Positions 9,164-10,456 of a DNA stretch of 64,000 nucleotides are shown in pieces. The stretch's first letter is position 1, and each line of letters begins with the position of its first letter. The notes under the pieces were generated by a model, which saw only the letters and a list, made by a program, of their open reading frames with translations, was not told the DNA's origin and did no database searches. Source of the DNA: an uncultured Eubacteriales bacterium (GTDB lineage Bacteria > Bacillota > Clostridia > Lachnospirales > CAMVHY01); contig CAOVHW010000001.1 in the NCBI GenBank assembly GCA_948543815.1, forward strand, positions 9,186 through 73,185. The letters run 5' to 3'. A program made the position numbers and the translations under genes.

Positions 9164-10456
9164 GTGGAAAATGATAATGGTTTCGAACAAATAAATCCTG
9201 ATGAAATAGATCTAAACGAAATTCCGGAAGATGAATTCAATACTGTGCTCAATGACAACGATGCAAAATTTATACAAAATCTTTATTACAAGCATCATGG
9301 TAGCTCACCACGATTTCCTGGCGGTAATTGTGTATTTGCTTCTATATTGACATTTATGTCTTATGAAAAAATAGATAACATGATTAATTATGTTTTAACC
9401 AAGCAAAAAGAATTGAACAACGAACAACTTAATGATATTATCGTTCAAATATTTAAAAACACGCCAAGAACCAAAAATCGAGATATTATTTCTTACATGC
9501 GTGCTTATGTATATATCTATCTTGTTGAAAATTTAGGTGAATATTTTAAAATAGGAGGTATAAATTCTCAATTAACCAATTTAGTTAACGGCGGATATAC
9601 TTTTATTGATCAATATACAATGCAAGCTTTTTGTGCAATGACTGGTCAAAATATTTTAGTATTTAAAGATAATAATAATAAAAAGTTGCAGCCAATATTG
9701 TGCTCTATTGATAAAAACAAATATTATTCTTTTGAAAAAATTTCTCGTTACCCTTCACTGTCAGGATATACTAAAACCCTTTCATATTTAAATGATGATG
9801 ATGATAATTTTTATGTAAGAAATTTAAGTTGTTCTTCAGAAGAAAATGGACCAACTATATCTTCAGCTAAATTTGATGGCAACGATACAATTTCAATTTT
9901 TTGTTTTGGAAACCATTGTACTCCATTTGTTGGAAAACAAAATGTACACTTTTTTTATCGTCTTGGTGCTAAAAAAATTAATACGTCAAAAATTGAAAAT
10001 TTTGTCCCACGAGATTTTATTATGAAAAAACAATTTGATGTACCAAAAAAAGATATAATGCAAAAAAATGATAAACTTAATTGGAAAACAATTTTTGCTA
10101 TAACTACTGGTATTGTTTTTGCAATAGGTGTATCAATTGTTAGTGCTTTTACTTTTGGCTTAGGTTTAATTCCTGCATTATTAGCTACAAAAATTGCAAT
10201 TGGTTTAGGCACGGCTTTTTCATTAGCATCATTTATATATCCTATATTCACTACCATTAAAAATAAAAAAAATAAAAAACAAGATTCCATAAATTTAAGC
10301 ATTACTCCACTTTTAGATGATAATGGAAATTTAATTAATGATGAAAGCAAAAAAAATAAAAACATGTTATCAAATATTCATAACCTTACATCAGATTCAG
10401 ATGAGCATATACCACCGCTTGAATCAAAACAAAATCAACTAAATATTTTTCATTAA
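9164..10456 (+). CDS. Locus A gene 1: OTU-like cysteine-protease signature + C-terminal bilobed TM hairpin + polar tail (430 aa)
   Basis: GTG start with a GAGGTG RBS. The motifs are FPGGNCVFASIL (Cys56, nt 9329-9331), MQAFCAMTGQNILVF, and ISIFCFGNHCTPF (His251, nt 9914-9916). The hydrophobic hairpin spans residues ~308-362 and is followed by an N/K/S/D-rich tail. Confidence 0.85.
   Translation: MENDNGFEQINPDEIDLNEIPEDEFNTVLNDNDAKFIQNLYYKHHGSSPRFPGGNCVFASILTFMSYEKIDNMINYVLTKQKELNNEQLNDIIVQIFKNTPRTKNRDIISYMRAYVYIYLVENLGEYFKIGGINSQLTNLVNGGYTFIDQYTMQAFCAMTGQNILVFKDNNNKKLQPILCSIDKNKYYSFEKISRYPSLSGYTKTLSYLNDDDDNFYVRNLSCSSEENGPTISSAKFDGNDTISIFCFGNHCTPFVGKQNVHFFYRLGAKKINTSKIENFVPRDFIMKKQFDVPKKDIMQKNDKLNWKTIFAITTGIVFAIGVSIVSAFTFGLGLIPALLATKIAIGLGTAFSLASFIYPIFTTIKNKKNKKQDSINLSITPLLDDNGNLINDESKKNKNMLSNIHNLTSDSDEHIPPLESKQNQLNIFH
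10085..10249 (+). other. Bilobed hydrophobic hairpin (two predicted TM helices) of locus A gene 1
   Basis: KTIFAITTGIVFAIGVSIVSAFTFGLGLIPALLATKIAIGLGTAFSLASFIYPIF is followed by TTIKNKKNKK. Confidence 0.7.

What the first reader, a model, noticed from the sequence alone, without database searches (positions are those of the whole stretch)
9164..10084. OTU-like cysteine-protease (deubiquitinase-type) signature fused to the membrane hairpin
The soluble part of the 430 aa protein carries three motifs in the order and approximate spacing of the OTU papain-fold family.
- A Cys loop, FPGGNCVFASILTFM, versus the OTU consensus GDGNCLFRAL. Cys56 is at nt 9329-9331.
- A central MQAFCAMTGQNILVF, versus the E(L/I)xA(L/S)...I.V motif.
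- A His loop, DTISIFCFGNHCTPF, versus h-x-L-x-Y...HY. His251 is at nt 9914-9916.

OTU enzymes are mostly eukaryotic or viral. The known bacterial examples are effectors of intracellular pathogens (Chlamydia ChlaOTU, Legionella Lot proteins), some of which are membrane anchored. An OTU-like domain tethered by an Inc-like hairpin in a spore-forming Firmicute would therefore be unusual and suggests host-directed or ubiquitin-like-modifier-directed activity.

Caveats: the acidic residue normally just before the Cys (DGNC) is Gly here, and there is no Asp/Asn two residues after the His.
Basis: inference. Interest (0 to 1): 0.8.

Follow-up and report, generated by a model that had tools for sequence, protein, structure and literature searches.

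The report
Membrane-tethered OTU-fold cysteine peptidase in Clostridia
An uncultured spore-forming gut Clostridium encodes a rare protein whose soluble part is predicted to fold like eukaryotic OTU/otubain deubiquitinases and which is held at the membrane by a two-helix hairpin; the fold call is reasonably supported, but its substrate and any action on a host are unknown.

Summary
ORF 9164-10456 (+) encodes a 430 aa protein with the three quoted motifs, Cys56 and His251 at the stated codons, and a C-terminal hydrophobic hairpin.

Sequence methods do not see an OTU domain. Pfam, NCBIfam and PDB sequence and profile searches give no OTU hit, and hhalign against an otubain profile gives P of about 0.01.

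A template-free AlphaFold model of residues 30-280 (pTM 0.71) retrieves only OTU deubiquitinases as its top 50 PDB matches. These include OTUB1/2, DUBA, OTUD1/3, A20, OTULIN, viral OTUs and Wolbachia wMelOTU. Cys56 sits at a helix N-terminus and His251 at the start of the second strand of a beta-hairpin, as in OTUs. Both are invariant in the roughly 9 known family members.

The canonical His-aromatic-Asp/Asn motif is replaced by an invariant His-Cys-Thr. This is therefore a divergent, unannotated OTU-fold family.

The gene lies in a hypervariable islet next to tRNA-Pro. Flanking genes are 96-100% identical to a sister genome, while this protein is 59% identical. Its catalytic core is under purifying selection. 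It belongs to a local family of hairpin-anchored orphan proteins.

The predicted topology puts the domain in the bacterial cytoplasm. No delivery system is visible, so host-directed deubiquitination remains speculation.

The parts
8940..9013 (-). tRNA-Pro (CGG); left boundary of the variable islet
   Evidence: ARAGORN; Rfam
9100..9136 (+). Sigma-70-like promoter TTGAAT-17-TATAAT. Its -10 box is part of the motif TATAATAAAATTAT, which is shared with three other hairpin-family genes.
9151..9156 (+). Ribosome-binding site GAGGTG, 7 nt before the GTG start
   Evidence: sequence
9164..10456 (+). ORF of the 430 aa protein (OTU-fold domain + TM hairpin + tail)
   Evidence: the exact protein was seen on 24+ metagenomic contigs
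9284..9931 (+). OTU/otubain-like papain-fold domain, residues about 41-256
   Evidence: AF2 domain model; Foldseek; conservation
9296..9337 (+). Extended Cys loop HGSSPRFPGGNCVF (residues 45-58). The putative nucleophile Cys56 is at nt 9329-9331, in the first turn of a helix.
   Evidence: invariant; aligned to OTUB1 RPDGNCFY; DSSP helix at model residues 26-33
9458..9520 (+). Conserved helix block NTP...YMRAYVYIY (residues 99-119). It aligns to the otubain block SDYLVVYLRLLTS.
9587..9664 (+). Block NGGYTFIDQYTMQAFCAMTGQNILVF (residues 142-167), a helix followed by the first sheet strand. It aligns to OTUB1 SDHIHIIALAQALSVSIQVEY. Asp149 is conserved as Asp or Asn.
9674..9883 (+). Hypervariable, low-confidence insert (residues 171-240). 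It spans the predicted strands at residues 175-183 and 186-190 and the disordered stretch that precedes the His hairpin.
   Evidence: pLDDT 31-45 over most of it; 35% identity and dN/dS 1.27 against the sister allele
9884..9931 (+). His loop beta-hairpin DTISIFCFGNHCTPFV (residues 241-256). The putative general base His251 is at nt 9914-9916. The motif is an invariant H-C-T-P.
   Evidence: 16/16 identical to the sister allele; strands at model residues 213-219 and 222-226; invariants
10082..10249 (+). Hydrophobic two-helix hairpin (residues 307-362) with Lys-rich flanks on both sides
   Evidence: 32% identical to the second hairpin of p833
10250..10453 (+). Low-complexity, fast-evolving C-terminal tail (residues 363-430)
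   Evidence: 19% identity and dN/dS 0.82
10622..14858 (+). Three paralogous hairpin-anchored orphan genes: p363 (10622-11713), p451 (11933-13288) and p453 (13497-14858). They share a conserved promoter and 5'UTR. The sister genome has only one homologue, of 242 aa.
24906..33914 (-). Second islet of related orphan genes: p344, p833 (two hairpins), p239 and p1459 (one hairpin). GC is 25-28%. The promoter motif TATAATAAAATTAT lies upstream of three of them.

Best explanation
Residues about 41-256 form a highly divergent OTU-fold (otubain-like, clan CA) cysteine peptidase.

- **Active site.** Cys56 lies in a G-G-N-C loop at a helix N-terminus. His251 lies at the start of the second strand of a C-terminal beta-hairpin. 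Together they most likely act as a Cys-His dyad, because the usual acidic residue two positions after the His is an invariant Thr.
- **Tether.** The domain is held on a membrane by a C-terminal two-helix hairpin whose two flanks are both Lys-rich. This implies an N-in/C-in topology, with the peptidase on the cytoplasmic face of the bacterial membrane (inferred).
- **Genomic setting.** The gene is one 'head' variant in a lineage-specific, fast-evolving family of hairpin-anchored proteins. These lie in two low-GC islets of an otherwise ordinary sporulating Clostridia chromosome.
- **Likely chemistry.** By analogy with every characterised OTU, the most likely reaction is cleavage of a peptide or isopeptide bond after a small (Gly-Gly-like) C-terminus.
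- **Shown:** ORF, motifs, conservation, selection pattern, predicted fold, and the paralogous hairpin family.
- **Inferred:** catalytic roles, topology, reaction. The substrate is unknown.
For: **Fold**
- The AF2 model of residues 30-280 has pTM 0.71. The helical lobe has pLDDT 78-93.
- All 50 top PDB Foldseek hits are OTU deubiquitinases from at least 8 subfamilies. The best is ceOTUB1, E 2e-3, prob 1.0, TM 0.42-0.44.
- BFVD hits are OTU-enriched.
- Even the poor full-length model puts the A20 OTU first.

**Sequence register**
- hhalign places PGGNC on the otubain PDGNC.
- With the insert removed, it also aligns the YMR helix and the helix-strand block. The score is 23.6, against shuffles of 13.7+/-2.7, with 2 of 200 shuffles reaching it.

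**Active-site residues**
- Cys56 and His251 are invariant across 26-99% identity.
- Cys56 falls in the first turn of a helix, and His251 is the first residue of a strand.

**Selection**
- dN/dS is 0.17 for the core and 0 for the His loop.
- It is 1.27 for the insert and 0.82 for the tail.

**Architecture**
- Distant members P0006 and P0007 keep the same layout of domain, hydrophobic anchor and tail.

**Literature**
- Cys-His dyads are documented among OTU-like enzymes (PMC10318531).
Against: - No curated HMM (PF02338, PF10275) and no PDB sequence matches any member.
- The profile-profile signal is weak (probability 4%, P about 0.01) and is carried mainly by the Cys loop.
- Foldseek E-values are all above 1e-3 and TM-scores are at most 0.44.
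- The MSA has only 7 sequences.
- The Cys loop has pLDDT about 51-63 and the His hairpin 55-69.
- The canonical H-aromatic-D/N/E triad threading (PMC7396840) is replaced by H-C-T.
- No invariant acidic residue lies near the Cys.
- The Cys-His distance could not be measured.
Confidence: 0.72

Rival explanations
1. The protein is a host-directed (or protist-directed) deubiquitinase effector. It is exported and its hairpin inserts into a eukaryotic membrane, like chlamydial Inc proteins or Legionella LotB. There the OTU domain removes ubiquitin or a UBL from host targets.
For: - It has an OTU fold.
- Every characterised bacterial OTU is an effector of a host-associated bacterium (PMC7396840; PMC3482391).
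- LotB/Ceg23 is an OTU DUB with a TM segment, and T4SS TM effectors typically have an N-in/C-in hairpin with a short loop (PMC12981334).
- The locus is hypervariable between near-identical genomes, as expected for conflict genes.
- The protein belongs to a multigene family with variable heads.
- A distant homologue (P0007) comes from a contig whose name suggests a rumen metagenome.
Against: - The organism is a sporulating, Gram-positive-type Clostridium.
- The window contains no T3SS or T4SS, and the protein has no signal peptide.
- The positive-inside rule puts the domain in the bacterial cytoplasm (inference).
- No route for delivering hairpin proteins into eukaryotic cells is known in Firmicutes (own knowledge).
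- The S1 ubiquitin-binding region is not recognisably conserved. The aromatic of the WGG motif is Asn here.
- The window otherwise has ordinary free-living metabolism: hydEFG, amylomaltase and transporters.
Confidence: 0.15
2. The protein is a bacterial-internal or conflict-system peptidase. Tethered to the membrane, the OTU-fold enzyme could process a bacterial substrate. Candidates are a Gly-Gly leader peptide, a bacterial ubiquitin-like conjugate, a phage protein, or a partner hairpin protein. This could be part of an anti-phage or inter-strain system, or it could act on the mother-cell face of the forespore membrane and end up on the spore surface.
For: - The predicted orientation is cytoplasmic (inference).
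- OTU peptidases in free-living bacteria have been proposed as processing or toxin peptidases (PMC3482391).
- The islet is hypervariable and lies next to a tRNA gene.
- A promoter motif is shared with the other hairpin genes, which suggests a regulon.
- The organism is a spore former, and spore-surface proteins lack signal peptides (own knowledge).
Against: - There are no PADLOC or PHROG hits.
- The window has no E1, E2 or Ubl genes.
- There are no relatives on phages, plasmids or viral contigs.
- The promoters look sigma-A-like, and no sporulation-sigma consensus was found.
- No integrase or toxin-immunity pair is present.
Confidence: 0.4
3. The protein is not an OTU homologue. On this view the motif matches are chance in an AT-rich, low-complexity orphan protein. 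The AlphaFold model would be a motif-driven artefact, and the domain would have another fold or be a non-catalytic scaffold.
For: - No significant sequence or profile hit was found.
- The MSA is shallow, and confidence is low at both active-site loops.
- Foldseek E-values are marginal.
- The acidic triad residue and the aromatic after the His are missing.
Against: - Getting 50 of 50 top hits from one superfamily, which makes up a small fraction of the 350,542-chain PDB library (fraction from own knowledge), cannot be chance for this model.
- pTM 0.71 was obtained without templates.
- The putative catalytic residues are the most conserved positions, and they sit exactly at the secondary-structure positions expected for OTUs.
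- Purifying selection is concentrated on these blocks.
Confidence: 0.15

Closest known systems
Otubains (OTUB1/OTUB2; MEROPS C65, Pfam PF10275)
   Same: - They are the best structural matches: ceOTUB1, hOTUB1, OTUB2 and rice OTUB.
- The domain size is similar, about 220 aa, with a large helical lobe between Cys and His.
- The P-x-G-N-C loop is in register, and so are the Y-[LM]-R helix and the helix-strand block before the sheet.
- The His lies in a G-x-H beta-hairpin.
   Different: - There is no HMM match.
- C65 is described as eukaryotic (PMC10318531).
- DGNC is replaced by GGNC.
- H-Y-D/N is replaced by H-C-T.
- A variable insert of about 60 aa precedes the His hairpin.
- The protein carries a C-terminal membrane hairpin.
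Bacterial OTU deubiquitinases (wMelOTU, ChlaOTU, RickOTU, EschOTU, BurkOTU; Schubert et al. 2020, PMC7396840)
   Same: - They are bacterial proteins with an OTU fold.
- wMelOTU (6w9o, 6w9r) is among the top Foldseek hits.
- Several of them are hard to detect by sequence.
   Different: - The characterised examples are all from Gram-negative, host-associated bacteria (own knowledge; the paper's main text does not mention Gram-positives or Firmicutes).
- They carry secretion-signal predictions and keep the H-aromatic-D/N/E motif.
- This protein is from a sporulating Clostridium, lacks that motif, and has no identifiable secretion route.
Legionella LotB/Ceg23 (Lpg1621)
   Same: It is an OTU-type DUB with a hydrophobic membrane segment C-terminal to the catalytic domain (PMC12981334). 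Among characterised proteins its architecture is the closest.
   Different: - It is a Dot/Icm T4SS substrate that acts on the host ER and Sec22b.
- There is no sequence similarity to it.
- One TMS is listed for LotB, against a two-helix hairpin here.
Chlamydial Inc proteins and T4SS transmembrane effectors
   Same: They have a bilobed hydrophobic hairpin with a very short loop, an N-in/C-in topology, and variable soluble domains within a multigene family (PMC12981334).
   Different: - They need a T3SS or T4SS and an intracellular lifestyle. Neither is evident here.
- The weak NCBIfam SidA_fam hit of neighbour p363 (22 bits against a cutoff of 60) covers only the hydrophobic region.
FAM105A/OTULINL
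   Same: It is an OTU-class protein localised to a membrane, the ER (cited in PMC10318531).
   Different: It is a eukaryotic pseudo-enzyme that lacks the catalytic residues. Here Cys and His are invariant.
OTU peptidase domains of polymorphic toxins in free-living actinobacteria (Zhang et al. 2012, PMC3482391)
   Same: They are OTU-like domains in non-intracellular bacteria, proposed to act as processing or toxin peptidases rather than DUBs.
   Different: - They sit inside giant secreted T7SS/WXG or RHS-type proteins with immunity genes.
- This one is a 430 aa hairpin-anchored protein with no such context.

Membership tests
OTU superfamily (clan CA; PF02338/PF10275/PF16218) | Papain-like alpha+beta fold with OTU topology: a helical lobe carrying the Cys and a central sheet carrying the His | tested here: met
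   The AF2 domain model has pTM 0.71. Foldseek top 50 PDB hits are all OTU domains. BFVD is OTU-enriched. This is a predicted structure, not a solved one.
OTU superfamily (clan CA; PF02338/PF10275/PF16218) | Catalytic Cys in a 'Cys loop' (x-G-N-C-hydrophobic) at the N-terminus of a helix | tested here: met
   GGNC56VF is invariant. It aligns to the otubain PDGNC. The helix starts at model residue 26, and the Cys is model residue 27.
OTU superfamily (clan CA; PF02338/PF10275/PF16218) | General-base His at the start of a beta-strand after the 'His loop', spatially next to the Cys | tested here: inconclusive
   His251 is invariant and is the first residue of strand 222-226 of a hairpin. The yOTU1 sequence NGIHYDS aligns to it in register, but insignificantly. 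The Cys-His distance was not measurable because coordinates are not exposed. Local pLDDT is 55-69.
OTU superfamily (clan CA; PF02338/PF10275/PF16218) | Triad threading C...H-aromatic-D/N/E, or an A20-type acid upstream of the Cys (PMC7396840) | tested here: not met
   H-C-T-P is invariant. No invariant Asp or Glu lies upstream of Cys56. The only conserved acids are D107 and D/N149, and their positions in space are unknown.
OTU superfamily (clan CA; PF02338/PF10275/PF16218) | Match to the curated family HMMs | tested here: not met
   No OTU or Peptidase_C65 hit at E<=10 for any of the 7 members. True OTUs scanned as positive controls do hit.
OTU superfamily (clan CA; PF02338/PF10275/PF16218) | Conserved aromatic that clamps the substrate Gly-Gly, and a basic residue that supports the Cys loop (PMC7396840) | tested here: inconclusive
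   Candidates are Y145 (Y/H) in NGGY, and the invariant R50 and R113. Equivalence cannot be shown without a superposition.
OTU superfamily (clan CA; PF02338/PF10275/PF16218) | Cys-dependent isopeptidase activity on ubiquitin or a UBL | not testable with these tools
   This needs recombinant protein and Ub/UBL probes.
Inc-like / translocated transmembrane effectors | Bilobed hydrophobic hairpin of about 40-60 aa with a short loop | tested here: met
   Residues 307-362. Helices at 307-330 and 336-368.
Inc-like / translocated transmembrane effectors | Producer has a T3SS or T4SS, and the protein is delivered into a eukaryotic cell | tested here: not met
   The 64 kb window has no secretion-system genes, and the organism is a spore-forming Clostridium. 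The whole genome was not available, so absence is not proven.

The most novel reading that the evidence does not exclude
Spore-forming gut Clostridia may possess a previously unseen arsenal of Inc-like, hairpin-anchored proteins with swappable heads. One of these heads would be an active OTU deubiquitinase. The proteins would reach a eukaryotic (host epithelial or gut-protist) membrane, or the spore surface, by a Gram-positive route not yet described, and would edit ubiquitin or UBL signals there. The strain-level hypervariability of the islet would then reflect host or immune pressure.
Probability: 0.12. Interest if true: 0.9.

Novelty: new variant of a known kind. Interest (0 to 1): 0.6.

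Why it matters
OTU deubiquitinases are regarded as eukaryotic and viral enzymes. The characterised bacterial copies are confined to effectors of Gram-negative intracellular pathogens and symbionts.

A conserved, selectively maintained OTU-fold enzyme in a commensal, endospore-forming Clostridium would extend that picture. It is invisible to Pfam, it has a His-Cys-Thr active-site variant, and it carries a membrane hairpin. It would either broaden the known phylogenetic and mechanistic range of OTUs or point to a bacterial substrate for this fold.

It also flags a fast-evolving family of hairpin-anchored orphan proteins in gut Clostridia whose biology is entirely unknown.

The claim is cheap to test with recombinant domain, Ub/UBL probes and a C56A control.

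Tried and rejected
- **Direct sequence annotation.**
  - Pfam, NCBIfam, PHROGs, PADLOC and PDB phmmer/hmmsearch gave no OTU hit.
  - The sub-threshold Pfam EF-G-binding_N hit (22.9 bits against a cutoff of 27.1, one member only) is treated as spurious.
  - The PDB TccC2 hit (E 0.06) is also treated as spurious.
- **Enlarging the family.**
  - Three searches were tried: one exhaustive HMMER search of 1.84e9 representatives, a word-indexed search of 5.8e9 proteins, and a profile search of the same 5.8e9 proteins.
  - Together they yield only about 9 non-redundant members.
  - GTDB genomes give one locus.
  - JGI metagenomes, IMG/VR, phage and plasmid collections give none.
- **The third large protein search.** The profile stayed shallow (Neff 2.3), and hhalign stayed weak.
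- **Structure.**
  - The full-length AF2 model was useless (pLDDT 35). Trimming to the domain and adding distant homologues rescued it.
  - Model coordinates are not exposed, so the decisive Cys-His distance could not be computed.
- **Sporulation promoters.** Regexes for SigE, SigK, SigF and SigG consensus sequences found nothing upstream of the hairpin genes.
- **Sample origin.** Looking up the run and assembly accessions in the literature found nothing. The host or environment of the window organism is therefore unknown.
- **Homology to Legionella SidA.** This was considered for the neighbour p363 and rejected. The hit is 22 bits against a cutoff of 60 and covers only the hydrophobic region.
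Full report
**Observation**

The ORF 9164-10456 (+) exists, with a GTG start. It is preceded by a GAGGTG ribosome-binding site (9151-9156) and a sigma-70-like TTGAAT-17-TATAAT (9100-9128). It encodes a 430 aa protein that contains all three quoted motifs. 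Cys56 is at nt 9329-9331 and His251 at nt 9914-9916.

A hydrophobic block of about 56 aa lies at residues 307-362. The full-length model draws it as two helices.

The window is a normal chromosomal region of a low-GC (about 31%) sporulating Clostridium. It encodes:
- spoIIIAE/AH, dapF, spoIIP and tRNA-Pro;
- a P-type ATPase, dnaA and gyrA;
- spoVAD, sipL and hydEFG.

The one relative found in the GTDB representative genomes is labelled 'uncultured Clostridia bacterium'.

**Sequence-level tests of the OTU idea**

No member of the family hits Pfam OTU (PF02338) or otubain (PF10275), even at E<=10. Genuine OTUs used as controls do hit. NCBIfam, PHROGs, PADLOC and PDB sequence and profile searches are also negative.

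The family is tiny. About 9 non-redundant proteins were found among 5.8e9, or 1.84e9 representatives:
- four full-length close relatives (P0001, P0002, P0003, P0032) and three truncated fragments (P0004, P0005, P0033), all 58-99% identical;
- two full-length distant members (P0006, P0007; 26-30% identical over the whole protein);
- one 131 aa fragment (P0008).

One distant member lies on a contig whose name (STEW19) suggests a rumen metagenome. Another lies on a short contig of GCA_024712465.1.

Across this range the invariant positions include:
- H45-G-S-S-x-R-x-P-G-G-N-C56;
- N99-T-P;
- Y111-M-R;
- among full-length members, G249-x-H251-C-T-P.

hhalign against an otubain profile aligns the helix and Cys loop in register (FIQNLYYKHHGSSPRFPGGNCVF to KIKDLHKKYSYIRKTRPDGNCFY). 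The significance is low (E 0.01, probability 4%).

With the variable insert removed, the alignment extends over 139 columns. It pairs YMRAYVYIY with VVYLRLLTS, and IDQYTMQAFCAMTGQNILVF with SDHIHIIALAQALSVSIQVEY. The score is 23.6, against 13.7+/-2.7 for column shuffles, and 2 of 200 shuffles reach it. Sequence evidence is therefore suggestive only.

**Structure-level test**

The full-length AF2 model failed (pLDDT 35).

A model of residues 30-280, built with a 7-sequence alignment that included the distant members and no templates, reached pTM 0.71. The helical lobe has pLDDT 78-93, and the sheet is weaker.

Its top 50 Foldseek hits in the PDB are all OTU deubiquitinases:
- C. elegans and human OTUB1 (best E 2e-3, prob 1.00, TM 0.42-0.44), OTUB2 and rice OTUB;
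- DUBA, OTUD1, OTUD3, A20 and OTULIN;
- nairovirus and tick-virus OTUs;
- Wolbachia wMelOTU.

The viral structure library is likewise headed by OTU proteins. Even the poor full-length model ranks the A20 OTU first.

In the domain model, Cys56 is in the first turn of a helix (model residues 26-33). His251 is the first residue of the second strand of a beta-hairpin (model strands 213-219 and 222-226). These are exactly the positions of the OTU Cys loop and His loop.

**Departures from canonical OTUs**

Schubert et al. define the usual threading as C...H-aromatic-D/N/E. They also describe a conserved aromatic that clamps the Gly-Gly and a basic residue that supports the Cys loop (PMC7396840).

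Here His251 is followed by an invariant Cys-Thr-Pro, the Asp of DGNC is Gly, and no invariant acid lies upstream of the Cys. D149 (Asp or Asn) and D107 are the only conserved acids.

Cys-His dyads are documented among OTU-like enzymes (PMC10318531). The protein can therefore still be catalytic, but it fails one defining feature. I file it as a divergent OTU-fold family, not as a member of PF02338 or C65.

**Genomic and evolutionary context**

A sister genome (L001, L005) has flanking genes that are 96-100% identical at the protein level. Its copy of this protein is only 58.6% identical. The next hairpin gene is 52% identical, and the window carries two extra genes.

Within the gene, selection varies sharply by region:

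| Region (residues) | aa identity | dN/dS |
|---|---|---|
| Catalytic core 41-170 | 88% | 0.17 |
| His loop 241-256 | 16/16 | 0 |
| Insert 171-240 | 35% | 1.27 |
| Tail 366-430 | 19% | 0.82 |

The enzyme core is being maintained inside a hypervariable islet next to tRNA-Pro.

The hairpin and tail are 32% identical to the second hairpin of p833 (26195-28696, minus strand). The proteins p363, p451 and p453 are paralogues of each other, and p1459 and p833 are related. All are low-GC orphans.

The motif TATAATAAAATTAT occurs 5 times in the window, against 1.3 expected. Four of these occurrences are directly upstream of hairpin-family genes, including this one. P0032 carries the same OTU head with an additional domain inserted before the hairpin.

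The OTU domain is therefore one head in a modular, fast-evolving family.

**Mechanism**

The most likely reading is a membrane-tethered Cys56/His251 (iso)peptidase.

Both flanks of the hairpin are Lys-rich and the loop is uncharged. The positive-inside rule therefore puts the N-terminal domain and the tail in the bacterial cytoplasm (inference). There is no signal peptide. The window contains no secretion system, no E1, E2 or Ubl gene, and no phage, plasmid or defence signature.

The host-effector idea draws support from three things:
- its architecture parallels LotB and the N-in/C-in hairpin effectors (PMC12981334);
- known bacterial OTUs are effectors of host-associated bacteria (PMC3482391);
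- the locus is hypervariable.

However, it lacks a delivery route in a Gram-positive spore former.

An internal or conflict-system role, or display on the spore surface after mother-cell lysis, is at least as likely. None of these is tested.

**Verdict**

- The OTU-like fold is supported at moderate confidence (about 0.7).
- Membership in curated OTU families is not met.
- Host-directed DUB activity remains speculative.
- This is a new, divergent variant of a known fold in an unexpected organism and architecture. It is worth a bench test with Ub/UBL probes and a C56A control.

Noticed in passing
window 9014-14990, compared with L001 9714-12322: A strain-level hypervariable islet lies between tRNA-Pro and the P-type ATPase. 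Flanking genes are 96-100% identical in protein sequence between the two genomes. The islet genes are 52-59% identical, and the gene count differs (4 against 2). No integrase or mobile-element gene is visible.
   Followed up: partly
window 9123, 25989 (-), 29490 (-), 33938 (-), 61275: The motif TATAATAAAATTAT (a -10 box plus downstream bases) occurs 5 times, against 1.3 expected. Four occurrences lie directly upstream of hairpin-family or orphan genes (the OTU gene, p344, p239, p1459). This suggests a shared promoter or regulon.
   Followed up: partly
window 10546-10621, 11857-11932, 13420-13496: The three paralogous hairpin genes p363, p451 and p453 share a near-identical promoter and 5'UTR of about 75 nt: TTGCAA-17-TATAAT, then AAAATGTAATGTT.ATAAAAAA...AAAGGAG. 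Each gene therefore appears to be its own transcription unit, duplicated together with its regulatory region.
   Followed up: no
window 24906-33914 (-): A second low-GC (25-28%) islet holds four orphan genes, with only weak sub-threshold Pfam hits or none. They are p344, p833 (two hydrophobic hairpins), p239 and p1459 (a hairpin at residues 1352-1405). They are related to each other, and through the hairpin to the OTU protein. Their soluble domains are unidentified.
   Followed up: partly
protein P0032 (556 aa; no locus fetched): A relative carries the same OTU-like head, with an extra domain of about 130 aa inserted between the head and the hairpin. This shows modular shuffling within the family.
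   Followed up: no
L012 1-6368: The contig that encodes the distant homologue P0007 also encodes two very large orphan proteins (over 1000 aa) with no Pfam domain and no TM segment. They lie upstream of a ribosomal-protein cluster. The contig name (STEW19) suggests a rumen metagenome.
   Followed up: no
window 8197-8868 (-): This conserved 223 aa protein has only weak TIM-barrel-type Pfam hits (FMN_dh, TMP-TENI, QRPTase_C, all below cutoff). It lies immediately upstream of the tRNA-Pro and the islet, and is 98.7% identical in the sister genome.
   Followed up: no
window 18093-19403 and 35321-37780: The dnaA and gyrA genes are both present, so the islets lie close to the chromosomal origin region. 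The cumulative GC skew falls steadily across 22-38 kb and is roughly flat elsewhere.
   Followed up: no
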